From NCBI GenBank assembly GCA_905178155.1, contig CAJINV010000011.1:2011939-2075938 (forward strand): DNA of 64,000 nucleotides, read 5' to 3'. How positions within the stretch are numbered: position 1 is the first letter of the stretch; each line of letters opens with the position of its first letter. This DNA comes from Amoebophrya sp. A120. Lineage: Eukaryota > Protista > Dinoflagellata. The notes under the pieces were generated by a model. The model was given only the letters and a program-made list of their open reading frames with translations, was not told where the DNA came from and did not search any database. The position numbers and the translations under genes were made by a program. Shown in pieces: positions 3,068 to 46,100 of this stretch.

Positions 3068-5549
3068 TCAAAGTCTCCCGACCGCTTCAACGTACCACCC
3101 CGGTACCTGGTAAGCCACGCCATCCCCGGGCGGCGGAACGAAGGGCACGAACCACAGAAGCGGGTTGTTCCCGAGGGTGGCGCACAAATTGTTGTACACA
3201 CCGATGTCGAATTTGTGACCCTTGTCCGCAAGTAGGCCCGGATCCTCGGGTAAGGACGCGCCACCACCTCGCTCCCGCTTATTCGAGTACTGCCCCGAGA
3301 ACAGCTCGCTGGCCCCGGTGTCCACATCCGGTCGGTCGCTCCTCTTGTTTATCAACTGCAAATGTGTCTAGTCTGGATCAGGACGAGTTGTGCTGCGCTA
3401 GGTTGTCATTGTCATGCACGTTTTGCATGACCAATGATGTCTGTGATGTATGTCCTCGCATAACAGATTTTTTGGAGCTCTAGCTCTTTGATGCCTACCC
3501 CGGATGAGAACAAGTGCTCGCTTCGCGCAGCAAAAACTGCACTCCTGCAGTTGCTGCTCATGCAATACAGGTTTTTTTCGAGTTCATCAAAGATAGCATG
3601 GCAAGTTCTTGCATTCTTCCAGAGGACCACCTCTCAGATGTTGACACAATGATCTTTGCGAATTTGATATGGTTGTGCTTCTCGCAGAACTCAATGGTGG
3701 TCATGTTTTTGCAAACCAGAAAGGTGTGAAACAGGAAAAACGAGGTCACAATCCCCGCCACGAACACCGCCAGCGACTCCGCGTAGAGCGCAACGAAGAC
3801 TTTCAAGCCCTGGTCGTTCACCGTGTCGTCCTCGAGGTAGTCCCGCACCGTCTCCCAAAACGTCAAAGCGATGAGCCACAAAACCGCAGAGGAATTAAAG
3901 AGGAGGAGGTAGAAGTACTTGTGGTTGCCGTACCCGATGGTATTGTAGACCCACGGGCAGTGGTGGTCCATGCGGAGCACGCACCGGCCCAGCACCCGGC
4001 AGTGGTGCGCGCGATCCGGCTTGTACTTGGTGCACCATTTGCAGTGCCGCAGCTCCCCGTCCTTCTTGGTTTCAAAGACCACCTTCCGCACCTCGTCTCC
4101 CTTGTTCTCGTAAAAATGCCCCCAGAGGGCCGTGTCCGGAATGCCGCCAGGGTCCGTAAATATACACAGGTAGTAGCAGTACAAAAGCTGCAGGGTGAAG
4201 AAACCGAAAAGCGAGGTCAGGATAATACCTCAGGACGCGTTTATTTCCATTGATATTATACTCAGCTGCTTGAATTACAAGCTACTTAGTTAGCTACTGC
4301 TGTTACGACTTATGCGATTACATGATCATCAATCGTGAGCCATGCTGCAGGCACAAATTGCAGCAAAAATCGACATCCACTTAGCCGCCAGCATGCACAA
4401 GAAAAAATAACCTGAATAGTTAAAACCCATCGATAAATTCAACGGTCGTGGAAATAAACAAGAGAACCGCTCGAACAAAAAATCCTCGAAAACGAACTGC
4501 AAGTAATTACCTTCCTGCTGCACATCCTATTGAGAGGAAAAATCCCCCCTCCCCATATCGAAAAGGTATGTCTCCCAAAATTTGTCTTGCTGATTTGAGA
4601 CCACAAATCACGTCTGTCTTGCAAGAAGACAACTCCACAGGCTCTGCCGCATTATGCAGGCGGTTTGTGATGCTGTCGGGCCTACAGCATAGACGTTTCT
4701 CATGCTAAGCGCCTAGGCCAAATCCTCTCTACTCAGGCTTGGCAGGAGCCTGCAGCCCCCTACTGCAAGACAGACCTGATCTGTATACGCAAATCCAGCA
4801 TCAGAAACTTCCGTTTGATATGGGGAGGGGGGATTTTTCCTTGTGATACATCCTTCTCCGCGTTTCCAAGCCGCGGCACCAGGTGTAGTGTGACGTAGCT
4901 GCTGGCAAGGTAGGTGACAAGCGAGTATGCATTGCAAATATGTCTGAGTCTGGAAGCTTGTAATGCCAAAAGTGGATGAGAGTTCCACTGCAATACGATG
5001 CCAAGCATGACAAATCTTTGGGCTCTTATGTGTTGCGTGTTCCGCATGGCAAACTGCGTTTTTGCGCGACAGGTAACAGGACCGCTTCGTGCCCATGCAT
5101 CACAGATTCTTGAGTCATGTCAGACATGCAAGACAAATGTAGCAATCTTCCAGAGGACCCAGACATATTTGCATTTGATAGCGAGAGAATGAAAACGATC
5201 GGAATCAGCTTGTTCACGTCCGGACCCTATGCACTGCAAATATGTCTGGGTCTGGAAATCTGTGATGCTGAATTGAGCATGATTGAAGCGCTTGTAATGG
5301 CAGCCAGGCATGACAAGTTCTGGAGAGGCCTGCTGATGGTGATGCCTACTACGCATTACAAATTGCGTTTTTGCAAGACAAAGCAAGCTCCTCTTTTGCT
5401 GCTCATGCAACACAGATTTTCCAGGAATGCAAGACACGCACCACAAGTTCCACTGTTCCAGACCCAGACACTTTTGCATTTGATAGACCCCGCTTCCTGG
5501 GCGGCCCGGGGGCGCCTGCGCCCGGCCCCGCGGCGCCGTACTCTTTCAT
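3068..5549 (-). CDS. DHHC-type protein S-acyltransferase (palmitoyltransferase)
   Basis: Contains CKWCTKYKPDRAHHC...MDHHCPWV, DPG and TTxE motifs and hydrophobic segments. Exons are joined across elements 3350-3669, 4528-4848, 4926-5180 and 5228-5485 and a GT-AG intron at 4229-4510. The start reads MKEYGAAG. Confidence 0.92.
4926..5180. mobile_element. Introner/MITE-like TIR element, family A (most abundant; representative copy)
   Basis: TIR TATGCATTGCAAATATGTCTG..TCTGGAA / TTCCAG..CCCAGACATATTTGCATTTGATA, direct repeat GCGAG. Other copies include 235-517, 1754-2017, 5228-5485, 8569-8825, 9882-10135, 11558-11823, 11982-12245, 13901-14164, 15452-15707, 18052-18305, 24311-24578 and 49082-49333. 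Confidence 0.93.
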
Positions 5550-6394
5550 ACACTGTTGTCACCGCATGATATTGCAATTGAGAATCAAAATAGAAGTTTG
5601 AGTAGGTCACTGTAGCCGGAGCGAAGAACGACACTTGGATTGCTTCGCCTGTCGCTTTGGGAGGAAGAGAAGAAAGCGAAGCGAAAATAGACCAAAGGTA
5701 AAACGGGCGCGGCACGCGAGTGGATACTCGTGCCCACGGGGTCCCATGAGGCTGAGGCAGAGTTTTTACCTATCGAAACACAATGCAGCTCCGACGGGCT
5801 CTTGTCGGCACATTCGAGAATAAAACCTGGTGCATGCCCCAGTGGTCTCCCGCCGGTGTTCTCTTTTTTCTTTCGTTGTGAAGAAATCGAGAAACTCTCT
5901 GTCTTCGCCGCTGCGCGTTGTTTTTCATACTTTGTACATCGACGTTTTTCATAAAAACGGAAACGAAAACACCAGACTTTCTCCCCTACACCATATTGTA
6001 CTGTAAAGGTAATAAACAAGAAGCATTCTAACATTTCTACCTTACGCCGCTTTTGAAGATATCTGGCGTTTGTTGCCCGAGCTATCGCCCGTTTGGCGTT
6101 TGTTGGCCAAGAAGATATTAACTAGTCAAAAAACCAAGTTAGATGCCCCTCGAGGGGGTTGGGGTGGACGAGAAAGATATTAAGTTGAATGTTTGAGTAA
6201 AGTTTCTAAAATGAACATTTGCATCAGTAACACTTAGAGTAAACGGAAACTACACAAGAATGGACGTCAAATAATCATGTCGGCAGCTTCTAGTACAACG
6301 ACGAGAACTACTATATACTGCTAGTCCCCCTCCAGCTGCGCTGCTGCAGATATTGTCTTTCGACCGAAATAAATCCGTATCCAAAAAAGTCATC

Positions 6395-9300
6395 TTACAT
6401 GACCGCACAGAACCCGGACGAGGCCCCCGACCCGCTCTTTTTTCCGCCTCCCATGAAAAAGGCACTCGAACTGTGCGGCAGCTCGGCCGAGGAGTCCATT
6501 CCCGCACCGACAAATCGGGTGAAATCCGCCCCGTCACCATCGATCCCCGCGAGCAGTTGCAGCTCCTCGCCGCAATCCGCCGCCGCCTTGGAGAGTTTCG
6601 GCCACACCGCTGGGTCGTCCTATGCAGAGGAAAAAAAGTGTTTAAGTGTAAGAACTTTGGAGGTTGAGTAGCATCACAAATTCGCTTTGCGTTTATAGAA
6701 AAAACCTGTCAACATGATGCGCAGGTAGCACGTCAAAACGCGTATGGTCTGACCCTATGACCACGCACATCCAGCATGACAAGCGTGACTGTCTCGCATC
6801 ATCTTCTGCAATACAAACTTACACTTACACAGTTTTTTTCTTGCGATACGTCCGGGTGTTCGTCTAAACGGCTGTGGACGTCGCCTTTTTCCACCACGTA
6901 TTGTGAGGAATAATCCCCCCTCCCCATATTGAAAGCGCATCCTTCTGAAAAACTGTGATGCGGATTTGTGGCCACAAATCCTGTCTGTCTTGCATGCAAG
7001 CAGATCCAGAGAATCCGCCGCATTATGCAGGCGGTTTGTGATGCTGTTGGCCCTAGACCATCGACGTTTTTCATGCTAGGAGCCTACGCCAAAACGTCGT
7101 GGCTCAGGCTTGGCGTATGCCTGCAATCCTCTATTAGAGGATTGCAGACAAATCTGCACGACAAATCTGATTTGTGTACTGAAATCCAGCATCAGAAACT
7201 TCTTTTTGCTATGGGGTGGGGGGATTTTTCCTTTTGATACCACGCCGTGGAATTTCAGTTGGTCCATCTCCAAATCGTAACACCGGCGCCGGTACGATAC
7301 CCGAATGTCCGTTACGTTGGACTTGTCCGTATCCAAGGAAAAGAGTGTTACAGTTACACATTTGTTGGGCAATCACAATCAGCAACACAAACTTTCTCTG
7401 CATGACAGCCGAAACTTGCAATGCAGAGATCATTAGCAAAAACACCTATGAAATCAAGTACCTGAGCACATTCGGCATGACAGACCTTGTCTCTCTTGCT
7501 TTGTCTGCAACACAATGTGTAACTGTAACACTTTTTTCTTCCCGTAGTCCGAGTGGTTCCAGTACTTTGACTTGTGCTTCCACGACTTGTAGACGCAATT
7601 CGGCCCGAGGTATCAAAGTGAAAAAAGCCCCCGCCCCATATTCAACAGACAATTTGTGTTGCTGGATTTGAGTACGCAATTGAGCTTTGTATTGCAGCAA
7701 GAGCTTGTCAGCATATTTTAAGTCCATGTGGGTACGCATCCGGGTCGCAGCTGAGCATGAGCAACAAGTCTGACATAGGCGGAAACGGACGACAGACTCG
7801 CTGCACAATGCGCCACATGGGTGCCGTTTGCCTTGTACGCAAGACAAAGTTGATTTGTAGTCACAAATCAGCATCACAAATCTCCTGTTCGATATGGGGA
7901 GGGGAGATTTTTCCTCACAATACGAGGAGCTGCTCCTTTACCTGCGGGTCCAGCCCGGACTGGAGGACGGAATTCTGCGCGATCTCGCAAATGTCGGTCA
8001 GGGACATCTTCCAGTACTGCTGCGCGATGGTGTACTCCTCTAGCAGCGGGTGGTCGGTGGCGTGAAACAGGAGTGGCTATCAAAAGGAAAATAAATCGTC
8101 CCTCCCCATATCAAAACGAAGTTTCTGACGCAGGACTTGCGTAGACAAATCAGATTTGTCTTGCTGGAGAGGATGAACACAGGCCCATACTAAGCCTAAG
8201 TGGAAAGGCTTTGCTCTAGGCGTCTAGCATGAGAAGCGTCCGCGCTGTAGGCCCATCAGCATCATGAGCGCAAACCTTCTACACAATGCTGCGGAGCTTG
8301 TGGAGTTGTCTTCTTGCAAGACAGACGCGATTTGTGGTCAGCTCAAATCAGCAACACAAATTTTCGGAATAAACGTACCTTGTTGATATTTATGGGGAGG
8401 GGGGTTTATTTTCCTCGCGATAGTGGCATGTCGGTCGACAGGCTGACGTTCAGGCCCCACCGGAAAAAGTCGTAGAAGGGAGAATTCGGCAACCGCTGGA
8501 ACAGGGCGTTGTTGGACAACGGCGACAGGGCGATCCCGATCTGGGACAAGTAGTAGACGTACGCCAAGTATCAAATGCAAAAATGTCTGGGTCTGGGAAC
8601 TTGCGATGCTAAAATGTGGATGATAGAAACAGTTCCGAATGCATCAACCCAGTTTGACAACTTTCCAGAACGCTTTCTCATAGGGAATCCGCATCAGAAA
8701 CTGCGTTTTTGCATGCACAAAAGAGGCCGCGACTTTTGTTGGTTATGCAATGCAGATTTCCTACTTATGGAAAGCCAGCATGACAAGTTCCAACCTTCCA
8801 GACCCAGACATATTTGCAATCCATACTAAGGGCGGACTGGACTTCAGCGTGAGTCCGTGGGAAATGCCGTTCGCCAGCAAGTACCCGCAGGCCAAGTGGT
8901 CCACGGACCCGGTCATGCCGCAGTGCGGGCGGAAGGCGAGCGAGTTGAGGCCGAAAGACTCCCGGATCTTGGAGAGAATGGACAAATTTGCGTAGAGGAA
9001 GTAGAGGTAATACCGGTAGTTGACGTGCTTATGCGTCTTCTTCGTCAGTTTCGCGGGGTCCGAAGGCCCGGCAGTATGCATTGCAAAAGTATCGTACTCG
9101 TAGTTGTGATTGCAATCATGCATTACAAATTTCTTTGTCATGTCAAGATAAATCCGCATTAATCTCTCATGCAGAGGAAATTTGTAATGCACTTTATACT
9201 AGTACGATGCTTTTGCAGTTCATAGGCAGCGAAGGTCGTCGACATGGACTCCTCTCCCACGGAGTCGAAACCCGACACGTGGTAGAGCAAAAAATCGTAG

Positions 9301-12300
9301 AGCGCCGGATCCGAGTCCGGATTCAAGGTGACCGCAATCAGGGGCTGGAACAGGTTTCCCAGCCACTGTTGGAAGCTGTTGCACACCTGAAACGACCGCG
9401 GAATCTGCACCAGAAACTTCGCGTTTTTCCTGGACGCGGCGGCCCCTGCGGCTTCTCCTTTGTGCGTCGGGAAATTTTTCTGGACCCACTGCGCGACCGA
9501 GGTCCATTCCTGCTTCGAGGCCCCCGTGACGGTGATGCGAAACTCCGAGTAGGTTTGCTTGTGCGCCTTGTGCAGCGCGGCATTCGAGACCAGGCGCCGC
9601 TTCACTGGGCTGCTAGGAGTTGTTGCTGCTTTGTTGGCTGTTGCTGATGTTGTACTTCTAAGACGTTCATTATCTTCGCGCTCGTCACTGTTGCTATTTC
9701 CTCGGGTTAGCACCACCGACTTGAGAATCTCCGCGAAAAAATCTTGCTTGTTCATTTCCCCGACGCCGTCGCTCTTCGACGTAGATGTTGCACTCGGCGT
9801 CTTCATTAAGACCGGCTTCAGAAACCGATCCCGCAAGCGCCGACTGCCGTACACGTTCTTTTTTTGTTGAAACAGTTCAAATATCAAATGCAAAAGTGTC
9901 TGGCGGGTCTGGAAGAATGCAAGTTTGTCATGCTTGTCTGGCACGACTCGAGAATCTGTGTTGCGTAGGCACGAAAGAGCCCTCTTAACTGTCATGCGAC
10001 AAGGCAGTTTGCCATGCGGAATACGTAAGACATGGCAGCCACAAAATTTGTCATGCATACCTGCGTATTGTGGCGCGTCAATCATTCACTTTCAGCATTA
10101 CAAGTTTCCAGACCCAGACATTTTTGCATTTCATATCAAAGTTCTGAAACAAACTCTCGTCGGCCTGCACCTGCAACGCGTCGACCGTCATCTGCTATCA
10201 AATGCAAATATCCCTGGAAGATGTCTGGAAATTTGTGATGCTGATTGAGAAAGACGAGGGCGCTCCTTCAATTGACGGCCAAGCATAACAAGTGTTGGAG
10301 GTACTACAGTGTTAATGTCTACTCTACACGACAAAGCGAGCTTCTGCATGACAGAAAAATCAAGCTTTTCATCTTGGGTAACGTGCATGGCAGATTTGCG
10401 AATCATGCAAGCCAAGCATGACAAACCTTGCATCTTTCCAGAGGTGGACCCAGAGGACATATTTGCAGTTGATATCTGCTCCTCTTTCTCGATCCCCGCG
10501 TGGGCAAACTCCTCCCGCAAAGTGGACGGGTGCCCAGCGTCCTATTCGGAGTAAAAACGTCCCCACCCCAGAGCTGTCGCGCAATTCTTTTTTTTTTTGA
10601 TTAGGCCCCATTTTCATGTATGTATTGTATGTGATTGTGTGACGGCGGGAACGGCACCCGCCCGTTGTGCTTAATAATGCGCTCCCACGCGCGAATTTCC
10701 TTTCATCTTTTGCATCACCATCATTTTCTAAGCTAGGAGCCGGTGTGCGTTACTTAACATGTGAAATCTAATCTCACGAACACCGAGCTGTCGCGCAATT
10801 CTGCATGCCAAAAAAGTTTCTCACGCGGAGCCCTATGGGAAGCATTTTCTATTCGTGTTGTCGAATCTGTGATGCTAGAACCAGCATGCTATGCTAGATC
10901 TGTGATGCTTCTGAATTACAATTAGCTAAACAGGATTAATACATTACGAGGACAAACTTGTCATGCCAGACAACCAAGGCTGGCTGATTTGTCTAGCACG
11001 TTTCCCATCTTGACTCTTGTGTGGGGACGTTTTTAATCAGGATACGTCCTGCCACTTCTTCTTCGTGAACTCCAGCAACTCCCGGGCTGTCATAGCGCAC
11101 GCGAGCTTCACCTGCGTGTCCACTTTGCCGATCGAGTAAAAGTCCTGCTTCGTCATCTCAGCAGAGTCCTGCTCCAGCTCGTGGTTTAGGAACATGTGCA
11201 AGTCAAAAAGCCTTTCCAGCAGCTCCAACCGTTGGTAGCAGAAGGACCGGACTGCCGCAGCCTGCACGATCTTGCTGGTCGTTGCCAAATCGTATCCACA
11301 GAAAAAAACCCATCCACATCCATTTTTTGCATGACAAACACGTGACTTGATAGGTGTCTTACATGACAAATTGGACGTGGATGTGTTTTTTCCTGTGGAT
11401 AAATCGCTGAGAAATTCTTCAAAGGACGGCACCTTCAGGTTCTTTGTCATGATCTGCGAGGAAGATGAAGAACCTCCTGTCAGCGTCAAGATGCCCTTCG
11501 GGAAGGAAAACTTCAAATTTTTCATCGACCCCGGTTCCTGGGTCGGCGGTGCACTGTTATGCATTGCAAATATGTCTGGGTCTGGACGAGTGTACTTAAC
11601 TTGTCACGCTACATCTGGATCGTGGAAAAATTTGTGTTGCATGATTAGCAAAAGAGGTCCACTTTTGAGCAAGTTTAGAGGCAGTTTCTCAGACAGGAAA
11701 GGCATGAGAGAGATCTCACAGAACCTGTCATGCTAGGCCGTGCATGCCAGACCGCCTGGGTCATGGAAAACCTGCATGACAAACCTAGCAATTTTCCAGA
11801 CCCAGACACTTTTGCATTTGATAACTGTTGCTGGTCGTGTCCGCGATTTTGACCGCGTATTTTGACGTTTGCTCCTGCTCCTTAGGACTTTGGTCTTCTA
11901 AATTTTTCGTGACCCCGGAAACGAGCGTCCGGATTTTTTTCGCCCCACCGGTGGTCTCGTACAATTTCGAGCGAAAGCAGTTATGCATTGCAAATATGTC
12001 TGGGTCCTCTGGAAGGTTGGAACTTGTAATGCTAGCTTTCCATACCTAGGAAATCTGTATTGCATACTTAAGCTTGACCAACAAAAGTCGCGGCCTCTTT
12101 TTCACAGAAACGCAGTTTCTCATGCGGATTGCCTATGAGAAAGCGTATATGCAAAGTTGTCATGCTGGGTTGCATTCGGAACTGTTTCTATCATCCACAT
12201 CCTAGCATCACAAGTTTCCAGACCCAGACATATTTGCGTTTGATAGCAGTACTTGCCCCGCAACGCGATCAGGTGCAGCAGCGCCCGGCAGATCACCTTC

Positions 12301-15300
12301 CGCTGCATCAACTCCGTCTCCGTGAAAAGCTGCTTACTATCGGGCGACACGTGTATCCTGGAATAGTGCTTTTCCTTCGTGGCGAGCGCCGCCAGCTCCT
12401 TGTATTCTATCCCGTGTAAAAACGTCCCCACCCCAGAGTGGTCATGATGCAGATTCGCGATCACAGGAAGATTTGTAATGCGCATCTCTATGAGAGGCAT
12501 TTCCAATCGTGTTTTGGAATGTGTAGCGCTGTAAACAGGATGAGCAGATAGATTTGTGATGCGGTTGTCCTTGCTCACAAGCACTACACTACGGACTGCA
12601 ACTTGTCATGCGTGGCTCCCAAAGCTTCTGGATTTGTGTTGCTAAGTTCCCAACTTGACTACGGGGTGGGGACATTTTTACATATGATATATTCCTGGGC
12701 CCGCTTTCGCATCAATCGGATTTCGTCCAGTTTTTGCGCGTCGGTGTTCGCCGTCCCGACGGAAAACACGGAGGAAAGGCGGTTCTCGATCCCCGTGGGG
12801 CTCTGGTCCTTATCAAATGCAAATATGTCCGGGTCTGGAACATTCCGAGACTTATAATGCTCTGCTAACAGGAGAGAAAGATCTGTCATGCATGTTGCGT
12901 TACCGCGCTACCTCTTTGCAATGCAAAAACGCTCTTTCTCATGCAGTTTACGCAATACCTAGTCGAAGCAGCAACTTGTCATGCGCGTCCCCGTATTGGA
13001 GGTTGCTCATGATCCACTAACTAGCATCACAAGTTTCCAGACATCCAGACATATTTGCAATTCGTAGTCCTCCCCCTCCAGCGACTTCTTTTTTTTCACG
13101 TCCGTGATCACCCGCTTCGCCATATGCTGAGCAAAAACATCCCCACCCCAGAGTCAAGAAGGGGATTTTGCAACAGAAACCTAGAAGTTTTGGGAGGACT
13201 CACACATCACAAATTGCGGCCCGTATTGTAGTGTAGGTTAGCAGGGACAAACGCATCACAAGTCCATCTACTTCACCTGGTTACAGCATTACAAATGCCA
13301 GAACACGACTAGAAATGCCTCTCATGCTCCTAGGGATCCGCATTACAAATGCTCCTGTCATTGCGAATCTGCATGACAACTCTGGAGGGGGGACGTTTTT
13401 CCAAATGATAAGCCACGTGCTTCATGATTTTCGCGCCAAAAGCGGTCTCGGTCTTCTCCACTGAATCCATGTGCATCGCCAAGGCGTCCTTCAGCGTGGG
13501 CTTCACGTGCGGCAGCCCCGGGAGCTCAATCTGCTCCAGATTCAACGTGCGCAAAATCGAAAACAAGCGGTCCATATCAAGTGCAAAAGTGTCTGGGTCT
13601 TGAAGCTTGGAACTTGTGATGCTAACGCTGGACTCTAAAAAAATCTGTATTGCATGACCAGCAAGAGGAGCCCAGTTTGTGCTACGTGAGGAGGGTATTT
13701 GCCATGCGGGATAGGCATCAGGAAGGCCTCTAAAAATATGCGATGCTAGATATTGCATTACAGAAAGCCTAAGTCATGCAAAATATGCATGACAAACCTG
13801 GCAACCTGCCAGACCCAGACATTTTTGCAATTGATAGTCCATCAGGGTCTCGTACCGGTAGCGACACCGGATGTCCGGGATGTTGGTCACGTCGGGGTTG
13901 TATGCATTGCAAATATGTCTGCGAGGTCTGGAAACTTGTGATGCTGGGTGGCGTATTGTGAGGAGGCCAGAAGTGCTGGCTCGGCATGACAAGTTGAAGT
14001 CTCTGAGCTCCTGCGTGTTGCCTATTCTGCATGACAAACTGCGTTTCTGCATGACAGAAAAATGGAGCTGCTCTTGGGTAACGTGCATGAGAGATTTAAG
14101 AGTCATGCCAGACAAGCATGACAAACATGCATTCTTCCAGACCCAGACATATTTGCACTTGATAGGTTATTCGACCGGGGAAACGGGAACAAGTTCCACA
14201 GGCTGGTACCCAGCTGCTTCGCTTTGGTCGCGTCCGAAAACCCACCCTGGAGGCAGCTGTTCCGCGCGATCTCGCACAGGTCGATGTTGCTGTACTTGTA
14301 CAGCTGTTTTGCGACCTGGTACTCTTCCAGAAGAGGTTCTTCCGTCTTGTGGAACTGCATGGGGTCGTCCGTGGACTATCCTGAGTAAAAACGTCCCCAC
14401 ACCAGAGTCAGGATGGGGATTTTGCAACACAAACCTAGGAGCTTTGGGAGTCACGCATGACAAGTTGCACTCCGCGGTGTAGTGCAGGTTAGCAAGTGCA
14501 GCCGCATCACAGATTGATCTGCTCATCCTGTTCACAGCGTCACAAATTCCAATACACGATTGGAAATGGCTCTGATGGGGATGCGCATTACAAGTCTTCC
14601 TGTCTTTGCAAATCTGCATTACAACTCTGGCGTGGGGACGTTTTTACTCAGGATATGGACAGGGAGACGTTCAGGCCCATGGAAAACAGCATATGGATGT
14701 GTCAGGATCGAAATCGACAAAGTTGAAATGATTTGCCATGCATAAAATGCAGCCCACAAAGTGCCTGTGTTGCAGAGTAGGCACAGGAGGCAGATTGTGA
14801 GCCTTTTGAGGGGTAGAAACTGAGCTGCTAAAGTAGCATGACAAAGAGCGTCTTCCTTACCCAAACAGCATCACAAGGTGGATTTCGGCTCTACCCAAAT
14901 TTGTCATGCGCCACTTGGAAACTGGGACTGGGTTACTTACACCTGGAATCCATTTTATGCATCACAAATCATAATTTCAACCTTGTCGATTTCGATCCTG
15001 ACACATCCATACAGCAGGTCAAAGGGGTTGTCCTTGTACGGAACGAAGAGCGCGTTGTTCGACAGCGGGCTCACCGCGCACCCGACCTGGCAGAGGTAGT
15101 ACAGGTAGCACAGGACCGTATCCACTGCAAATATCCCTGGATGTTGTCCCGAAGAATGCAAGTTTGTCTTGCGTGGCTACCATGACACACTTCAGTCTGT
15201 CATGCACGTTACCCAAAAGCCACGGCTTTCCGTCATACAAAAACGCAGTTTGTCATGCTGGATAGACAATCCCTGGCATTATAGCTCAGAAATTTGTCAT

Positions 15301-18300
15301 GCTGAGCCGTCATCTGTATCGTCCGAATCAGATTCGCCAGTCAGCATCACAACTTTATTCCCGACGTCCAGGGTGGATATTTGCAGTTGATAGACCGGCG
15401 TGTTGGACAATTGAATCCCGTGGTTGACGCTGTCCGCGGTCAAAAACGCGGTATGCATTGCAAACATGTCTGAGTCTGGATTTGTGATGCAGGACTTCAA
15501 GGACAACAAGATCTGTATATGCATGAATACCATTGGCCAGATTTATTTTGTCGTGCTGGATGGCAGGCAGTTTGTAATGCTAAACACGAATGAATCCGCA
15601 AGGAGCCGAGGGAAATTTCTCATGCCGTTATGCCGTACAAGCAGCAAGTTTGCAATGCAAGTATCAGCAACACAAGTTTCCAGACCCAGACATTTTTGCA
15701 TTTGATACGCGGTGTTTAAATGCAACGGCGACCCGGACTCCCCGCAGTGCGGGCGGAACTTGAAGGTGTTCAGCCCCAGCTTCGAGCGGAGGGTGTTCAA
15801 CACGTACAGGTTTGCGTGCATGTAGTAACACCAGTAGGCGTAGGGCGGGTTGTCGCTGTCCGTCGTTTTCTCCTTCGGCACGTCCTTCCCAAATTTCGGC
15901 GGTGGGGGGCAGTATCACAAGAAAAAAGTGCTACATTGTGTTGCAACCCCAGCATGACAGACCACCTCTGTCATGCCAGACATGCTTGATGTTCCGAGCT
16001 TCATGTAACACTTTTTTCCTGTGATAGGCAGGTGTCCATGTTTATCCAAGAAAAAAACAGTGTTAGTGTAACTTTCTTTGATTGCCAGCATCACAAATTT
16101 GCTCTACATGACAGAGAACATCTGTCATGCGTGGCTTGTAAGGGAAAACACATGTGAAAAGAGGACTTCATGGCTGTCTGGCATGACAGGTGTAACTCTG
16201 TTGCATATTCTGCATTACAGAGTTACAGTTTTTTTCTTGCATAAGGTTTATCTCCAACTTCGACTCGTCGTCCACGGAGTCGAACCCAGAAGTGTGGGTC
16301 CTATCCTGTGCAAAAGTATCGCACTCGGATTGCAGTCATGCATTACAAATCTTTTTCTTAGGGTAAATCAGCATGGCAAATTTTATTTCTCATGCTGAGG
16401 AAATCTGTAATGCAATTAGTATACGAGTACGACCCTTTTGCACTAGACATAGGTCAAAAATTCCGCCAACTTCGGGTTCGCCGCCGGGTTGATCGTCACT
16501 TCGAAAAGCGGCTGAAACACGTTGTCCAGTAAATCTTGAAAGGTTTCCACGAACCCCAATTTCTTGAACACGTTAAAAACCCGCGGACACTGGATCATCC
16601 AACGATTGTTTATCCAGGAAAAAAACTGTGTAAGTGTAAGTTTCTTGGAGGAATCGCATCACAAGTTTGCTCTGCATGACACAGAAAACCTGTCATGCGT
16701 AGTACCTAGTACGTGAAAACTACACGCACGAAAATTGCCTCTGAGTGATGCATGTCCAGCATGACAAGTGTAACAGTTTTGCGTTTTCTGCAACACAAAG
16801 TTACACTTACACAGTTTTGTTCTTGGATATTGTTCTTGGAAAACAGCTGGTTGTCCACCACCCAGTTCGCCAAATCCGTCCACTCCTTCTTATGAAACTG
16901 TCAGGATCGAAATCGACAAAGTTGAAATACCTTGTAATGCATAAAATGGATGAAAGTTGTAACCCAGTTTCCAAGTGGCGCATGACAAATTTGGCTAGAA
17001 CCGATGAAATCCAGTTAGTCATGCTGTTTGGGTAAGGAAGACGCCTTTTGTCATGCTACTTTAGCAGCTCTACTTCTTCTACCCTCAACAGGCTCACAGT
17101 CTGCCTGTCTTGCGTACTCTGCAAGACAGACATTTTGTGGGTTGCATTTTATGCATCACAAACTACTTATTTCAACTTTAGCGATTTTGAATCTGACACT
17201 CCCATACTTCTTGTTGGTGCCGTAGATCGACACCCGGTACTCCGTAAAGATCGCCGTGTGCTCGTCGCGGTCCAGGATCTCTTTCGTCAGTTCCGCAAAA
17301 TACTTGCCGTTCAGGTGGTTGGAGGATTTCAAAAACACGGTGCGCAGATTATGACTTGCTCAAACGTTACAATCTCAAACGTTAAAATAGAATCTGGAAT
17401 TTGTGTTGCACGATGAGCATGACAGACTCGCACAGCGTTCCACCTTTTGCAATACAAATTTAGCCAGATTGTAGTGGGGTTTGGGGCTCCGGAACTTGTC
17501 ATGCGCAATCCTATGAGAGTTGGCTAGATGATGCACTCTTGCATCACAGATTTCCATATTCTAGTGCAACGTTTGAGATTGTAACACCTGAGCGGGTTAT
17601 ACAGATCACTGTTGCCGAAGGGGTTGTACTTCGCGTTGAAGTGGTCAAACCGGTCGAACAGATTTTCCTCTGCCTGTATCCTGAGTAAAAACGTCCCAAC
17701 CCCATAGTTATCGTGCGGATTTGCGATTAAGTACAGGAAGATTTGTAATGCACATCTCCATGAGAGGGAAAGGTATTTCCAATCGTGTTTTGGGGTTTGC
17801 AATGCTGTAAACGGGATGAGCAGATGAATTTGTGATGCGGCTGCACTTGCTAAACTGCACTTCTACACTACGGACTGGAATTTGTCATGCGTTGCTCCCT
17901 GAGCTTCTGGGTTTGTGTTGCTAAGTTCCCATCTTGACTATAGGGTGGGGACGTTTTTACAGAGGATAGCCTGCACGTCCAGACTATCCACGGTCATGGC
18001 GTCGGCGGAGTGGATCCCGGACTTCGCGAACACTTGTTTCAGCGTCAGCCCTATGCATTGCAGAAATGTCTGGGTCTGGAAAAGTGGAACTTGTGTTGCA
18101 TGTCGTGCATTCCTGAAAAATCTGTGTTGCACAGCCAGCAAGAAAGTCGCTACTTTTTCGTCCTGCAAAAACGTAGGTTGTCATGCGCGCTACGCACCAG
18201 CCGGCGTCAAGTATACTTGTCATGCTTGGCTGCACTTGAGAGCGCCAGTTTTATATAAACTTTAGCATCACAAACTTCCAGACCCAGACATATTTGCATT

Positions 18301-19230
18301 TGATAAGCCCCTCCTTCGTTTTCCGGTCAACCAACACGATCTCGTCGCCGTGTATCAAAAGGAAAAAGCCCCCCTCCCCATACCGAAAAGGTATACTTTC
18401 GGAAATTTGTGATGCTGATTTGTGGCCACAAATCGCGTCTGTCTTGCAAGAAGGCAAACTCAGAAGGCCCCCCGCATTATACCGGTGGTTTGTGATGCTG
18501 TTGGGCCTACAGCATGGACTTTTGTCATGCTGAGCGCCTAGGCCAAAACCTCCCCCACTCAGGCTTGATGTGGGCCTGCAGTCCTCTACTGCAAGACAGA
18601 GCGGATTGTGGCCACAAATCTGCATCACAGATTTCCGTTTTGATATGGGGAGGGAGCATTTTTCCTTTTGATACCGTGCTCCCGGTACTTCCGTTGAATG
18701 AAGTCCAGCAGGTGGTTGGCCGTCATGGCCGCGGCCAGGTGCACGTGGGTATCCACTTTCGCGAGGCGGTAGAAATCCCCCTTCGACTGTTGCACCTGCC
18801 GCTGCTCGCGTGACTGACTGTTCAGCAGTTTGTGGATGGAAAAGCTCCGGGCGAGCAGCCCGAGCTCCCTCCTGCAGAAGCTCTTCACGGTGCCGGACGT
18901 CGAAATATTCCGGAGTTTGGCTTCGTCCTGGCAGAACTCGTGAAACAGCGCCGGCGGCAGGATTTTTCCCGTGCTGTTTTCGGCGGTGCTGTCGGCCACA
19001 AGTTCCTGGACCGTGAAAACCCCATTCTCGCACTCGTAGGAAAAGGCATCCGCGGCCGGCTTTTCGAGGTGTTGTCCCCCGCTCGCTGCGGTTGATGCGA
19101 CCACCTGGTTCGGAGGGATGTAAAGGTACTTGGAGCGGAGCTTAATCGCATACACCACGTCCGCACAGGCTTCGGCCGCGCCCGGTGCATTTTCCTCCCC
19201 GGTGACCACGCACCGCACGTACTCAGACAT
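6395..19230 (-). CDS. AMP deaminase with two tandem AMPD domains (N-terminal intact, C-terminal degenerate); 31 TIR-element introns
   Basis: Domain 1 has [37 protein letters not shown] and SLSTDDP. The frame continues without a stop through the linker (about 12400-13570). Domain 2 has [28 protein letters not shown] and SLSTDMP. Confidence 0.88.
9075..9224. mobile_element. Introner TIR element, family F (short; GCAAAAGTATCGTACT)
   Basis: 150 bp, direct repeat GGCAG. Relatives: 646-761, 16302-16451, 34650-34807, 34889-35007, 60255-60399, and a copy near 42233. Confidence 0.9.
10588..10784 (-). mobile_element. retroposed insertion (poly(A)-tailed, 17-bp TSD) nested in a family C introner
   Basis: GAGCTGTCGCGCAATTC is duplicated at 10571-10587 and 10785-10801. 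A T11 run abuts the left copy. Confidence 0.8.
11293..11401. mobile_element. short (109 bp) introner element, stop-free and frame-preserving
   Basis: TATCCACAG.AAAAAAC / GTTTTTT.CTGTGGATA, direct repeat AATCG. 109+5=114 nt, and the ORF track reads straight through it. Confidence 0.88.
14377..14655. mobile_element. Introner TIR element, family C (TATCCTGAGTAAAAACGTCCCCAC)
   Basis: Perfect 24-bp TIR, direct repeat TGGAC. Relatives: 10543-11044, 12408-12689, 13123-13410, 17677-17968, 45539-45997, and copies near 27656, 41525 and 43332. Confidence 0.93.
14692..15011. mobile_element. Introner TIR element, family D (TATGGATGTGTCAGGATCGAAATCGACAA)
   Basis: Long perfect TIR, direct repeat CAGCA. 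Relatives: 16891-17206, 35519-35831, 55611-55919, and an eroded copy ending at 48993. Confidence 0.93.
16611..16829. mobile_element. Introner TIR element, family E (TATCCARGAAAAAAACTGTGTAAGTGTAA)
   Basis: TIR with direct repeat TTGTT. Relatives: 6621-6848, 7330-7546, 16043-16243, 26842-27053, and a short copy at 15913-16026. Confidence 0.9.
17350..17601. mobile_element. Introner TIR element, family G (GCTCAGGTGTTACAATCTCAAACG)
   Basis: TIR with direct repeat CAGAT. Relatives: 41904-42170, 42983-43226. Confidence 0.9.
18353..18673. mobile_element. Introner TIR element, family B (CCCCTCCCCATA subterminal)
   Basis: TATCAAAAGGAAAAA..CCCTCCCCATA inverted at both ends, direct repeat CCGTG. Relatives: 4528-4848, 6899-7239, 7611-7922, 8078-8422, 23628-23943, 41156-41469. 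Confidence 0.92.
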
Positions 19231-20023
19231 TCTTTCCAATTCTGAAAATGATCCTAGAATGTTGTACTAAATGTTGTAAAATCCAAGGATATCAAGCGGT
19301 GACAGTTGCTGTCAGTAGTTTTAGGGCTGCAGTACGCCCGAGGAGAGCAAAAATATATGAACACTCGCTCAAAAAGAGGATGAATATTCTTTCAGTCATT
19401 TCTTCTGGTAAAAACCGTCGCATCACGGAACGACAAAAGCAAAATAAGAGGAAGAAAGGACGCAAAGAAATTTGAAGAAGAAAACGCAGCAGCACAAAAG
19501 ATATGATTTATGGACCACCTCGTGCTGCGTCAATACCGTGTAAAAAGTAGTACTTTCTTAGTACCTTTCAGAAGTTCTTTCAAGTACTATGAATGAAAGC
19601 CAAAAGAAACGCATGCAGAAGACGACCGTGAAGAACTTCTTCAACATCCCTCAAGCCACACAGAATTATCAGAAGGCCAACATCTACCCATCGCTTTATT
19701 TTCAGTGTCTGTCTTTGTCTCTCACCTGCGCAAGGAAAATCTACTTGTTTGCCTGGTGCTCCACTACTTGAAAACTCTTTACCATGTAGTTCACACCTCT
19801 CGTCCCACCACTTCCTCTGAACTGTCGCTTGTTCGGGGGAACAACGAGAAGCAAATTTCGGGATCATCCGCCTCCACGTGCCGAAGTGAAAATAAACAAC
19901 TCGGCGCAGAAGTAAAGCTTGGCAAACGAAACTCAAGTCCACGCCACCGTGTTATTTTCCCAGCATTACAGATTACTTTTAAAAGGGAAGATGAATGTAG
20001 TGTGTCGTGTCCTGTTTGAAAGA

Positions 20024-22726: not shown

Positions 22727-25700
22727 CTAGTCGTCCTCCGGCAGGTAAAAGTGGAAGAAATCTTCCGACAGTGCTCGTTGCGACGAGAGTCGGTATGCAT
22801 TGCAAATATGTCTGACGGTGGTCTGGAAATTTCATTTTGTGTTGCTGATAATACTTTCATTGCATAGTGGGAGGTCCACGTACCACATAACAGCGTCAGA
22901 GATTTTTTCGCGAAGCCCATACGTATCCATATGTACTAAAACGCTTCCAGTACGACAAAAAAACAGAAACAAAAAGTGGCCGATTGCCTTCCTGCATTAC
23001 AGATTTTCTTACTCGTGAGATCTCGCATCACAAATCGTCCAGACCGCCCAGATCGACGATATTTGCAATGCATACTCGGTTCAGCGGATCCACTGTCAAG
23101 CACCTCTCGCAGAGGGTCCGAAACGGCCGGGCGTGGCCGTTGTCGTGCCCTTCGTAGATGAACCTGGGGATAATTAAGTATTTCAACGGATTTTTTATAC
23201 CGTTTATTTGTGTTTAATATTCCGACATAGGATCGCTCCTCGACCTCGTCGACCTATCCTTCTACATGAAACAAGAAGCCCCACTTCAACAAAAACACCA
23301 GGATAGTGTACTTATTAACTAAAAGATAACGTACGGGAACAACGAACTAGTACAAAAAAAAACCAATGTACTAGCACAACTCAAAAGTAAAGATATTCGA
23401 AATCTCGTCTCAATCTCGTCTCTACTACAATCAGAAGCATCGTAATCGTATAAATGCATATACAAATTTGAATTTCCAACTCAGCATGAGAAATAAAATC
23501 TGTAATGCTGATTTACCTCAAAAGAATGCATGACCATGATTGCAAGTAGAAATAAAAAAATACTCGTCCAGTCTTCCCAACACGAGGGGTTGGCAGGGTT
23601 TCACCTCGTAGGTGTAGTACTTGCCGTGATTGTAGGGAAAAATTCCCCTTCCCATATCGCAAAGGAAATTTGTGCTGTTGTATTTGAGTACACAAATCAA
23701 CTTGTATTGCTAGAAGGCCAAGAGACAGAGCTGCTCCCTCGTTTGCAGGCCATTTGTCATGCTTTCTCGCGTTTCCAGTTGCTTCCTGTCATGCTGAAGA
23801 CGAAAGGCTTTCCCGGCGCGCCGGCCAGCACTCCAGTCCGCATCTCTTCCCTTCTAGCATGACAGCGCTGATTTGTGGCCACAAATCTGCATCACAGATT
23901 TCCCTTGTGATGTAATGGGGAGGCGGGATTTTTGTTCTTAATAGCCGTCACTCGAGCGTGCCGGATTCCGCCGGTGTCGGAAGGCCCGGCGGAACGTGTA
24001 TCAACTGGAAAAGTGTCTGCGTCTGGAAGAATGCAACCTGTGATGCTAACTTTGGACTCTAAAAAAATCTGTATTGCATGACCAGCAGGGGGAGTCTAGT
24101 TCGTGCTACGCAAAGAGGGCATTTGTCATGCGGAGTAGGCAGGACGAACCCCCCTAAAAATCTGTGATGCTAGGTCGTGCATTACAGACATCCTGGGTGG
24201 TCATGCAAACTATGCATGACAAACCCGGCAACATTCCAGACCCAGACATTTTTGCAGTTCATAACGTGGAGTCCCGCGCCACGCGGAGAAAATCGTCGCT
24301 GAAGCCCCCGTATCAAATGCAAAAATGTCTGGCTCTGGAACGAAGCAACTTGTCATGCTAAATCCGAATCATGTAAACATCTGTGTTGCATGATTCCCAA
24401 AAGCTTTCCACTTTTGACCTAATCGAGAGGAGGCAGTTTCTCATGCAGGATTATAGGCATGATAGAAATCTCAGAGAATCTGTCATGCTATGTCCTACAT
24501 ACCAGACCTCATGGCTCATGCAAAACGTGCATGACAAGTCTAGGATTCTGCCAAACCCAGACATTTTTGCATTTGATACCCCGCCTATGGTCTCCATCTG
24601 CAGCAGCTGCTGCAGATCCCGCGGGTTACTCGACCGGAAGTCGCGGCTGCGTCCGCTACCCGAACTCCCGCCGCCACTGCTGGTCAAGTTCAAAATGTCA
24701 CCAAGGTATCTGTATTTAAGTGTGTTGATCAAGTGAGTTTGTGTTTGATATATAATTTTAAATTTTCGATACTTCTTCTTCTGCAAGAACTCATCGACAC
24801 AAGCTGCAGGAGCATGATCGTAGTTATACTTCTTCAAGATGAAAATTGCAGCTACAAACATATCATGATCCAACTGAAACATCACTCAAAAGATCAGTAT
24901 ACAACTCCATCAGTATGCATCCGAAAGAGTAGACGTCCGTGCGCGCGTCCCACTGGACGCCAATCATCACTTCGGGACTGCGGTACTGCCGGGTGGAGAT
25001 CACCTCGCTCTTTCGGTCCACGTCCTCAAAGATAGCCCCGCCGCAGTCGATAATCTTGATGTTGGCGTACCGCGGGCGGCGGTACTCTCCGTCCTCGAAG
25101 CACCCTTGCACCAATATCAACTGCAAAAGTGCCTCCGTCTGGAAGAGTGCCAGATGACTTGTCATGCAGGTTTTCCGTGACCGATGAGGTCTGGTATGTA
25201 GGACATAGCATGACAGATTCTACTGTGAGAATTCTATCTATCACGCCTATCCTGCATGAGAAAGAACTGCCTCGCCTCGATTAGGTCAAAAGTGGAAAGC
25301 TTTTGGTAATCAAAATCATGCAGTACAGATTTTTACATGATTCAGATTTAGCATAACAAGTTGCTTTGTTCCAAAGCCAGACATTTTTGCATTTGATAAC
25401 CAAGACCCCCTCGCGGTTCCGACGGCTCGGGGACACGCGGCGGCCCAGGAAACTGTACCGGTACTTCCGCTTCCACCGGGTGTACTCATCGCCCCCGACT
25501 TGCTGGGCCTCGTACTCTTTCCAGCACCGTTTCGGCGGGTCTGCAGTGCGGGTTGGTGAATACTCGAACAGAATATTCTCCGGCTTCAGGTCGGTGTGCA
25601 CGCATCCCAGCTGATATTTAGATCGAGAATTCTTTACAGTTCAGTGCGGCAAATTTTATTTTACCGATTTTATTATTTTTGTTTATATCCAGAATGAAGG

Positions 25701-43100: not shown

Positions 43101-46100
43101 ATCTGGCGAAATCTGTAGTATTGCGAAAAGCCCAAGTCTCTGTATGGTACGTCTCATACTGTTCATGCAAGACAAATTTCAGCTTCTATTGTAACGCTTG
43201 AGATTGTAACATCTGAGCAAGCCATATGCTGCTCCTGCACCTTCTGTGCGATATCCGCCAGGCAGTAGGAGTCGCGCACGATTTGCACCAGGCTCTGGTC
43301 GGGATGCCGAGCCTCCGCGCTGAACAGCGCCCATCCTGTGTAAAAACGCCCCCACCCCAGAGCTGTCATGCTAATCTGCATGCTGAGAATGTTTCTCATG
43401 CGGAGCCCTATGAGAAGTGTTTTCCAGTCGTGTTTTGGAATTTGTCATGCTCCAATCAGCGTGATATACTAGATCTGTGACGCTGCTGAGCTAGCTCGGA
43501 CAGCACTACAATACGAGTCCAAATTTGTCATGCAAAACAGCCAAAACTTGTGGATTTGTCTAGCCGAGTCCTCATCTTGACTATGGGGTGGGAACGTTTT
43601 TACATAGGATAGCGCCTGCAGGATCGCCAGACTGCGGCCCTTGGTCAGCTGAAACTCGAAGTAGGCGGGAATCGCGGTGCCCGTGATTTCGGACACCGTC
43701 TCGTGCGTCTCGTGCTGTTTCGTCTTTCCCGAAATGCTGATCGGCTCCTTCGGCAGGCGGATCTGCTTCGTTTCGAAGTATTTCTTCGTGCGCTCTAGCA
43801 CCAGATCCGGCAGGTGCTTGCACAGCACCGTCACCGGCGTCTCGAAGACCTTTTTCCTGTTCACCCGGCCGGCGGCGATGTCCAGCACGATCTCATCCCA
43901 GGGCTTGTCGATGTCGAAATCGTCGTCCGACCCGTCGTCTTTCTCTCTCAATTTGATATGAGAGTGCTCAACTCCCCCTCCCCCTGATTTGTCATGCCAG
44001 TTACCAAATCCACGCCAAGTCTTCGACCTCTGTTTGCATGACAACTTATTCTGGCAGATTAAACTAGCACTACATGATGACTACTGTGCAGATTTGTCAT
44101 GCGAAACCTGCATTTTTGCTGACACTTGTATTGCTGTTCATGCTATACAAAAGAGGGGAAGCAGGGGGAGTTGTGCACTCTCATATTTGATCTCCGCATC
44201 CTTGACGACCATCGCGTGCGCGTCCAGCGCTTCCTTATTCAGGAAGGGCAAGTAGTCGTTGTTGCAGTGGTGCAAGAACGTGACCCGTTCCAGCGACCGC
44301 GTGGCTGCAACATACAGTTCGTTCGGACACAAGTTTGGGTTCTTATCCTTCTTGTAAAACTCAAAGTAGGAATTGTCAAACCCATACACGATCACCACCT
44401 TCCGCTCCAAACCCTTCGCCTGGTGGAAGGTACTGAAGACCAGCTTCTTTTTCATCACGTCGCTGTCCAGCTTCTCCTCATCGTGCGACGGTACGAACAC
44501 GTTCACGCCGCGGGTCTCGGTCCGGCTCTTCAGCATGTTCTCCAGCTTGCGCACGGGCGTTTTTTCGCTGCGAATGGAGGGCGCGAGAATAAAGATGTCC
44601 TCGGGCTGGTAGCGAAACGCGGTCAGATACATTACCACCTCCTCGAAAGCCTTCCCCGGCCCGCGGCCGTCGTGCGCATAGTCGTTGCCGAAAGATATCC
44701 ATAGTAAAATCAAAATTCCCGCACACGTACAAATGCCGTTTCTACATAATAAAGCTTTTTCCCTTCAATCCTATTTAGCATGACAGGTGGTGTCTGCTCA
44801 TCTCAGTTGGCGAAGTTTGTGATGCTGACTGTACTTACATGTAGGGGAAATTTGTATTGCATAAAACAGTTGCAAATCACGTAACGCGGCAGAAAGTTGG
44901 ACTTCTTCTTCGAGACCAATCGAATGTTCGCATGCAATGCAAATACGTCTGAGTGTGCTGCAAGCCTGTGATGCAAGTCAGGGAAAATCAATGCGCACAC
45001 TTTAATGCGCTGTCAAGCATGACAAGTTTTTCCGTGGTTCTGAGTTGCGTGCTTATTGTTCCGCATGAGAAACTTCGTTTTTGCATGACAGGCAAGAGGA
45101 GCTTTTTACTCTTGCAGCCACGCAATACAAAGCTCAGAGTCATGCCAGAGTACTAGCATGACAAACCTCGTCGAAATATTCCAGTTGACCCAGACATCAT
45201 ACGTATTTGCATTTGATAGTTCGCTTGGTTGTGCAGCAGCACCTCGTTGACAAAGTCGGCCACCTCGATCGGACACCGGAAGGTTTCCGAGAGCTGCAAC
45301 CGGACCCAGTTTTGATGTCGGAACATCAAAGGGTTGTCACGAGTTTGCGGCCCACGGCCGTCGTCGCCGACGATCTCGATTTCCTTTCCTTCGCGGGTAA
45401 ACGTTTTCCGCGGCTTGTTGAACTTGAACAGCTCCGGGGCAAAAACGATGAACCGCTCATCCGCCAGGTTAAACTGGTAAATGGACTGGTGGCGGTCCCC
45501 CATCACGATCAGCTTTGGCATGAAACCAAATTTGTAAATATCCTGAGTAAAAACGTACCCACACCAGAGTCAGGATGGGGATTTTGCAGCACAAACCTAG
45601 GAGTTTTGTGAGTCACGCATGACATAAACAGACTGTGCTACTGCGGGCGAGACATTGTGTATCAGGTGAATTGATCAACCCGAAGACGCCGCCTCCCCGG
45701 GCCCTACGGACCTGGCACTCCCAACTATACTCCCCACACGAAACGCCACCAATACAACTGTAGGACATTGCCAACCACCCCGTGAGTCACGCATGACAGG
45801 TTGCACTCTGCAGTGTAGTGCAGGTTAGCAAGTGCAGCCGCATCACAGATTCATCTGCTCATCCTGTTCACAGCATCACAAATTCCAAAACGCGATTGGA
45901 AATGGCTCTCATGGTCATGCAGATGCGCGTTACAAGTCTTTTTGTCTTTGCAAATCTGCATTACAACTCTGGCGTGGGTACGTTTTTACTCAGGATAGTA
46001 AAAGTGGTCGCGGCGAATTTTGCACACGAGCTCGTAGTACAGTTCCGTCAGATCCTGCGACTCGTCGAGGATCATCAGATCCCATCTCGGTAGCGGCTGT

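What the first reader, a model, noticed from the sequence alone, without database searches (positions are those of the whole stretch)
6395..19230. Tandem AMP deaminase: an intact catalytic domain fused to a pseudo-enzyme copy
Seen: one continuous spliced frame holds two full AMPD domains. Domain 2 changes DTHVH to DTQVK (about 11100), HCGE to HCGM (about 8915), STDDP to STDMP (about 8430) and VDDES to VGEES, while surrounding motifs ([20 protein letters not shown]) are conserved. Known: in AMP deaminases the HxH and later His/Asp bind zinc and the Glu of HxGE is catalytic. Inference: domain 2 is catalytically dead but maintained, perhaps as an allosteric nucleotide sensor or an intramolecular dimer partner in parasite purine salvage.
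Basis: partly seen in the sequence, partly recalled or inferred. Interest (0 to 1): 0.72.

Follow-up and report, generated by a model that had tools for sequence, protein, structure and literature searches.

The report
Tandem AMP deaminase with dead copy
This gene of a marine parasitic dinoflagellate (Amoebophrya) encodes one protein with two AMP deaminase units, one intact and one missing four essential catalytic residues, so likely inactive; the dead copy likely serves as a built-in partner subunit, and the same live-plus-dead layout is common in amoebae and euglenozoans.

Summary
Observation confirmed. Removing 31 inverted-repeat introns gives one 1518-aa frame (minus strand, 19230-6395), identical to an annotated Amoebophrya sp. 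A120 protein. A 5116-nt spliced contig spans both domains. Domain 1 keeps all seven residues shown essential in Plasmodium AMP deaminase (AMPD). Domain 2 lacks four of them, yet keeps 74 of 90 near-invariant positions and is 55% identical to strain A25, so it is likely a maintained pseudo-enzyme. The layout is not parasite-specific: 109 two-unit AMPDs were found, many named from Amoebozoa (live-dead) and Euglenozoa (dead-live), and only 1 keeps both sites intact. None of the tandem domains has the full phosphate-effector triad of ordinary AMPDs (0 of 220, against 26 of 29). Two shorter tandem relatives fold with pTM 0.87 and 0.91, which suggests fixed packing of the two units. Best reading: domain 2 is a fused, inactive partner subunit (0.6); nucleotide sensing is the main rival (0.22). 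Independent versus shared origin is unresolved. Eight literature searches found no description of the architecture, and the scan had not noted it before.

The parts
6395..19230 (-). Coding span of the tandem AMP deaminase gene: 32 exons, 4557 nt, 1518 aa (= P0001)
5864..19258 (-). Span of the spliced contig of run X1 (5116 nt: 28 nt before ATG, 531 nt after the stop)
13545..19230 (-). Domain 1 with its N-terminal helices (res 1 to about 612): intact AMPD unit; H162, H164, H440, E443, H462, D517, D518 present; low end approximate
12360..13544 (-). Linker (about res 613-727), in frame, interrupted by three introns that are spliced in contigs; ends approximate
7256..12359 (-). Domain 2 (about res 728-1425): full-length AMPD unit, 42% identical to domain 1, with a low-complexity insert at about res 1031-1088; ends approximate
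11106..11120 (-). DTQVK: both zinc histidines of the HxH motif replaced (Q925, K927)
8914..8925 (-). HCGM: catalytic glutamate replaced (M1256); zinc histidine H1253 kept
8424..8438 (-). STDMP: zinc aspartate kept, second aspartate replaced (M1331); same motif in strain A25
9246..9260 (-). VGEES in place of VDDES; the upstream aspartate equivalent to Arabidopsis D598 is kept
6616..18673 (-). 31 non-canonical introner introns (114-507 nt), TAT/TAC...ATA inverted repeats with 5-nt direct repeats; only 1 of 31 can be placed as GT/GC..AG
   Evidence: element type as described in PMC7789003 (passages)

Best explanation
The gene encodes one 1518-aa protein with two complete AMP deaminase units, in which unit 1 likely does all the catalysis (AMP to IMP plus ammonia) and unit 2 is likely an inactive pseudo-enzyme that is predicted to pack against unit 1 as a fused stand-in for the partner subunit that ordinary AMP deaminases get by oligomerising. 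Shown: one spliced frame and transcript contig, the residue changes, conservation of unit 2 in a second strain, and the wide spread of the layout. Inferred: whole-gene duplication and fusion, inactivity of unit 2, its packing on unit 1, and a role in folding, assembly or tuning of unit 1.
For: Single frame and spliced contig. All seven scored residues were individually essential by alanine substitution in Plasmodium AMPD (10.1101/447789, section 4.2 read); unit 2 lacks 4 of 7. The losses are focused: 4 of 7 essential against 12 of 83 other near-invariant positions, Fisher p=0.017. Unit 2 is 55% identical to A25 (308 of 555) against 34% in the linker, and has a third orthologue, P0084. Of 109 two-unit proteins, 81 have exactly one intact site, 27 none and 1 both. 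Dead units as a class keep scaffold residues (F344, R427, E532, D546, E549, R594, R598 in 90-99%) and lose active-site ones. AlphaFold2 models of two whole tandem relatives, one of each order, reach pTM 0.87 and 0.91, which I read as a fixed placement of the units. AMPDs work as tetramers built from dimers (PMC12246493, passages).
Against: No activity was measured, and the window's own full-length protein could not be folded (limit 1200 aa); pTM comes from relatives and does not show which surface is used. The lysine of the conserved dimer salt bridge (AMPD1 K287-D361, mapped here by offset) is absent from both units (V146 in unit 1, Ala in unit 2) and the aspartate is Gln in unit 2, so the canonical interface is at least remodelled. 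The 27 proteins with no intact site show that such proteins can persist for a non-catalytic reason that a partner-subunit role does not explain. The RNA support is one sample of assembled short reads.
Confidence: 0.6

Rival explanations
1. Unit 2 is a ligand-sensing regulatory domain: it binds a nucleotide or phosphate and controls unit 1, replacing the ATP/phosphate allostery of ordinary AMPDs.
For: The phosphate-effector triad (Arabidopsis R380/R386/K506, mapped from PMC3042610, passages) is complete in 26 of 29 single-domain enzymes but in 0 of 83 intact and 0 of 137 dead tandem units. Unit 2 keeps H659, H681, D736, K466 and R475 equivalents and has a basic residue at Y467 in all three orthologues. 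Its C-terminal half is strongly conserved with A25.
Against: Across 137 dead units the AMP-binding loop is mostly lost (N238 kept in 7%, Y241 in 20%, D518 in 21%). Unit 2 lacks the effector triad too. No binding data exist.
Confidence: 0.22
2. Unit 2 mainly serves as a docking or localisation scaffold that ties the enzyme to a cell structure or partner protein.
For: A T. brucei AMP deaminase lies in the outer paraflagellar rod (10.1101/2024.04.19.590284, passages; its domain layout was not checked). Doubly dead tandem proteins exist (27 of 109).
Against: No localisation data for Amoebophrya. Conservation in dead units centres on fold residues rather than on a lineage-specific patch.
Confidence: 0.08
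3. Unit 2 is an enzyme with another substrate or a rebuilt metal site.
For: It keeps three of seven active-site residues, and A25 keeps the catalytic glutamate.
Against: The replacements differ among the three orthologues (Q/N/N, K/Q/W, M/E/E), unlike a conserved new active site. Two of four zinc ligands are gone.
Confidence: 0.05
4. Unit 2 is a decaying relic without function.
For: It evolves faster than unit 1 (55% against 78% identity to A25) and carries low-complexity inserts.
Against: It keeps 74 of 90 near-invariant positions (70 in A25 and in P0084), an open frame through 16 introns downstream of domain 1, and GC3 of 0.79 against 0.84 in domain 1.
Confidence: 0.04
5. Two neighbouring genes were joined by mis-annotation.
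For: The contigs come from one sample, and their RNA status is the tool's guess.
Against: The linker is in frame, every linker intron is spliced in contigs of four runs (one joint missing in X3), and strain A25 has the same fusion.
Confidence: 0.01

Closest known systems
Eukaryotic AMP deaminase (Pfam PF19326; human AMPD2, PDB 8HU6/8HUB/26XC; Arabidopsis AMPD, PDB 2A3L)
   Same: Domain 1 matches over residues 91-619 (E 9e-150 to AMPD2) with all zinc and catalytic residues. Domain 2 is a second full unit of the same family.
   Different: These have one unit per chain and assemble as dimers or tetramers. Here two units are fused, one lacks four essential residues, and both lack the phosphate-effector triad.
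Two-unit AMP deaminases of Amoebozoa (Acanthamoeba, Planoprotostelium, Pelomyxa, Entamoeba, Arcella and others), annotated simply 'AMP deaminase'
   Same: Same order, intact first unit and defective second unit.
   Different: Many keep the three zinc histidines and lose the glutamate or last aspartate, whereas Amoebophrya lost the HxH pair. Common origin is neither shown nor rejected.
Two-unit AMP deaminases of Euglenozoa (Trypanosoma, Leishmania, Bodo, Euglena, Peranema, Namystynia and others)
   Same: One live and one dead unit in a chain of about 1200-1900 aa.
   Different: Reverse order (dead first), and a subfamily with both units defective.
Yeast inactive AMPD paralogues YJL070C and YBR284W (recalled; the paper was not held)
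   Same: A pseudo-enzyme AMPD kept beside an active one (recalled).
   Different: Separate genes, not fused.
Tandem live-plus-pseudo enzymes such as receptor tyrosine phosphatase D1/D2 (PMC7320164, abstract in listing)
   Same: An active domain followed by an inactive copy in one chain.
   Different: Unrelated fold and pathway; an analogy only.

Membership tests
AMP deaminase, active enzyme (domain 1) | PF19326 match over the catalytic unit | tested here: met
   best stretch 62-607, model 91-622 of 630
AMP deaminase, active enzyme (domain 1) | Zinc ligands H391, H393, H659, D736 and catalytic E662, H681, D737 (Arabidopsis numbers) | tested here: met
   7 of 7 present; roles from 10.1101/447789
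AMP deaminase, active enzyme (domain 1) | AMP deamination measured | not testable with these tools
   needs an assay or yeast complementation
AMP deaminase, active enzyme (domain 2) | Same seven residues | tested here: not met
   3 of 7 present; Q925, K927, M1256, M1331 replace the others
Canonical single-domain AMPD clade (animals, fungi, apicomplexans, Colponema) | Falls within the clade on the tree | tested here: not met
   clade has 99/97 support without Amoebophrya; sister to apicomplexan enzymes rejected, p-AU 7e-4 and 3e-4; fast-evolving rows may bias this
Canonical single-domain AMPD clade (animals, fungi, apicomplexans, Colponema) | Phosphate-effector triad R380/R386/K506 | tested here: not met
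   domain 1 has Gly, Ala and Thr; domain 2 has Gln, Gly and Gln; mapping by offset from PMC3042610
Pseudo-enzyme (domain 2) | Catalytic residues lost while the fold residues are kept | tested here: met
   74 of 90 near-invariant positions kept, losses enriched at essential residues, p=0.017
Pseudo-enzyme (domain 2) | No catalytic activity, and a non-catalytic function shown | not testable with these tools
   needs biochemistry
Amoebozoan tandem AMPD family (by descent) | Domain 1 groups with amoebozoan first units and domain 2 with their second units | tested here: inconclusive
   p-AU 0.10-0.34 for both shared, 0.30-0.60 for domain 2 shared, 0.49-0.66 for own duplication
Amoebophrya A120 introner elements | Terminal inverted repeat starting TAT, 3-5 nt direct repeat, non-canonical ends | tested here: met
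   31 of 31 introns, two starting TAC; definition in PMC7789003

The most novel reading that the evidence does not exclude
Tandem AMPDs are an undescribed second kind of eukaryotic AMP deaminase that lacks the usual phosphate/ATP effector site and instead uses a fused dead copy as its regulatory module. The design arose more than once (Amoebozoa, Euglenozoa with reversed order, Amoebophrya) and is the form found in trypanosomes, Leishmania and Entamoeba.
Probability: 0.2. Interest if true: 0.75.

Novelty: new variant of a known kind. Interest (0 to 1): 0.5.

Why it matters
AMP deaminase guards the cell's energy charge and is known only as a one-domain, oligomeric, allosteric enzyme. Here three distant protist groups carry a fused live-plus-dead version that almost never keeps both sites (1 of 109) and lacks the usual phosphate-effector residues. 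That gives a natural test of why AMPD needs a partner subunit and how pseudo-enzymes arise. It also warns that long 'AMP deaminases' annotated in trypanosomatids and Entamoeba have one working site or none, which affects metabolic models and drug-target modelling. This gene itself is one more member of that unrecognised group, not a unique invention.

Tried and rejected
Complex prediction of domain 1 (res 92-607) with a truncated domain 2 (856-1339) gave no verdict (score 0.01, alignment not used); it is not evidence either way. No whole genome is held, so a second, ordinary AMPD gene in this organism could not be looked for; none named Amoebophrya was among the best 120 of 4067 shorter hits, which is weak. 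No run on record as RNA was listed as a holder. Raw-read RNA runs X8 and X9 laid only 2 and 318 reads, none as full exon cover: no evidence on expression. The ESM Atlas returned only single-domain AMPD and adenosine deaminase clusters. dN/dS was not computed because no A25 DNA was available. Foldseek of the Arcella model matched single AMPD chains (TM 0.78 by target) and cannot show how the two units pack. Three papers whose identifiers I recalled were not held. Parasite-specific purine salvage was rejected as an explanation because free-living taxa share the layout. The 23 neighbouring exon stretches scanned with Pfam gave no purine-pathway family. The first free tree suggested an own duplication (88/73), but a constrained tree was 5.0 log units better, so I do not claim independent origin.

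Full report
Gene structure. The region holds one minus-strand gene broken by 31 elements that start TAT (29) or TAC (2), end ATA, carry terminal inverted repeats and sit between 5-nt direct repeats (26 perfect, 5 with one mismatch) (one element, 16451-16302, was placed by eye). Removing each element with one repeat copy gives 1518 codons without a stop from 19230 to 6395. The version keeping the upstream repeat copy equals P0001, annotated as Amoebophrya sp. A120. The introns fit the introners described for that strain (PMC7789003, passages).

One transcript. A contig of run X1 is 5116 nt, the exact length of my model from 19258 to 5864, and 8 of 8 listed pieces lie at the predicted offsets. 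Across 10400-14500 all 9 interior introns are spliced in X1, X2 and X4 and 8 of 9 in X3, with zero depth in several intron bins. Limits: the four runs are one sample, RNA status is the tool's guess, contigs are assembled short reads, and the data may be those used for the annotation.

Two units. Domain 1 matches PF19326 and human AMPD2 over residues 91-619. Domain 2 is a second whole unit, 42% identical to domain 1 (235 of 559), so a whole-gene duplication with a linker of about 115 aa is inferred. I scored seven residues that were each essential by alanine substitution in Plasmodium AMPD (10.1101/447789, section 4.2). Domain 1 has 7 of 7. Domain 2 has 3 of 7: both histidines of HxH, the catalytic glutamate and the second aspartate of STDDP are replaced.

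Maintained, not decaying. Of 90 positions conserved in at least 95% of 154 intact units, domain 2 keeps 74; losses are 4 of 7 essential against 12 of 83 others (p=0.017). Identity to strain A25 is 78% in domain 1, 55% in domain 2 and 34% in the linker. A25 has the same fusion, also without HxH, but keeps the glutamate. An unnamed protein, P0084, holds a third orthologue of domain 2 behind a fragment of a first unit.

The layout is widespread. The best 120 of 439 hits of 834-2657 aa included 91 proteins with two units; the best 150 of 337 representatives added 18. Of these 109, 30 are live-dead, 51 dead-live, 27 dead-dead and 1 live-live (3 if the last aspartate is ignored). Among the 89 with no gap at a scored residue the split is 22, 43, 23 and 1. 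Four cluster-mates were left out, as were P0084 and P0093, which have one full unit. Named amoebozoans are live-dead (two Entamoeba proteins dead-dead); named euglenozoans are dead-live or dead-dead. These counts are sequences, not events; they include isoforms and close kin, and ranking favours two-domain proteins. A few tree labels (Mastigamoeba, Rhabdomonas, Hemistasia, Physarum) are my reading of record prefixes. No other named alveolate had two units; Hammondia, Neospora, Eimeria and Colponema had one.

Origin is open. On 47 chosen rows (of 179 in the fast tree) the careful tree joins Amoebophrya domains 1 and 2 weakly (88/73), and BLAST ranks the Amoebophrya first units just after the domain 2 orthologues. 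Against this, holding domain 2 with amoebozoan second units gave a tree 5.0 log units better than the free one. AU tests reject neither an own duplication (p 0.49-0.66) nor shared origin with Amoebozoa (p 0.10-0.42). They do reject a sister position to the apicomplexan enzymes (p 7e-4 and 3e-4), though long branches may contribute. P0007, the one live-live protein, has its two units as sisters (100/99), so such duplications do recur.

A second shared trait. The phosphate-effector residues named for the ice-worm model on Arabidopsis AMPD (PMC3042610, passages) map by offset to R380, R386 and K506. All three are present in 26 of 29 single-domain enzymes and in 34 of 53 single-unit representatives, but in 0 of 83 intact and 0 of 137 dead tandem units. 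In human AMPD2, phosphate competes with ATP at the allosteric site (PMC13277832, introduction and discussion read). Tandem enzymes are therefore predicted to be regulated differently. The trait could also be a gain in the single-domain clade.

Mechanism. AMPDs act as tetramers made of dimers (PMC12246493, passages). Whole-chain models of two shorter relatives, Arcella P0025 (live-dead) and unnamed P0086 (dead-live), have pLDDT 90.5 and 89.9 and pTM 0.87 and 0.91. I infer a fixed placement of the units, because two freely moving halves would not be expected to score so high; the surface used is not shown. Against a plain canonical dimer, the conserved salt-bridge lysine is missing from both Amoebophrya units and the aspartate from unit 2 (mapped by offset, spacing 74 in two of six sequences checked). 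The most likely reading is a fused inactive partner that helps unit 1 fold, assemble or be tuned (0.6). Ligand sensing by unit 2 is the main rival (0.22).

Literature. Eight full-text searches listed no paper describing two-unit AMPDs; I saw listings and abstracts for most and read passages of seven papers. Subscription papers and author manuscripts on Leishmania, Trypanosoma and yeast AMPD were not searchable, and no supplements were read, so a prior mention is possible. The scan's own index had no related note.

Verdict. Real and correctly observed. It is a new variant of a known enzyme family, shared with many protists and apparently undescribed. Interest 0.5.

Noticed in passing
window 1-64000: About 68 non-overlapping TAT..ATA inverted-repeat elements with 5-nt direct repeats (17.5 kb) by a simple scan; the AMPD gene alone has 31 introns of this type, about five times the genome's reported intron density per coding kb.
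   Followed up: partly
window about 3071-5600, minus strand: Next gene downstream has a DHHC palmitoyltransferase exon (3561-4229, E 7e-35). The X2 contig over the AMPD gene is 6641 nt, about 1500 nt longer than X1's beyond the laid stretch; whether it runs into this gene was not seen.
   Followed up: no
window 24866-25114 and 44192-44764, minus strand: Exons with protein kinase and UvrD-like helicase C-terminal matches.
   Followed up: no
proteins P0038, P0049, P0062, P0071, P0072, P0079, P0082, P0090-P0092, P0094, P0095: A euglenozoan subfamily (named members Phytomonas, Porcisia) in which both AMPD units lack essential residues, so likely wholly non-catalytic.
   Followed up: partly
protein P0007 (unnamed): The only two-unit AMPD with both sites intact; its units are sisters (55% identical) and it groups weakly with Amoebophrya (92/88).
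   Followed up: partly
protein P0083 (unnamed): Two-unit AMPD with EF-hand Pfam matches, hinting at calcium control.
   Followed up: no
window 16451-16302, 16243-16043, 14164-13901, 13410-13123, 8825-8569: Five introns have one mismatch between their direct repeats; at two of them the choice of copy changes a residue (364 and 383), and the annotated protein keeps the upstream copy.
   Followed up: partly
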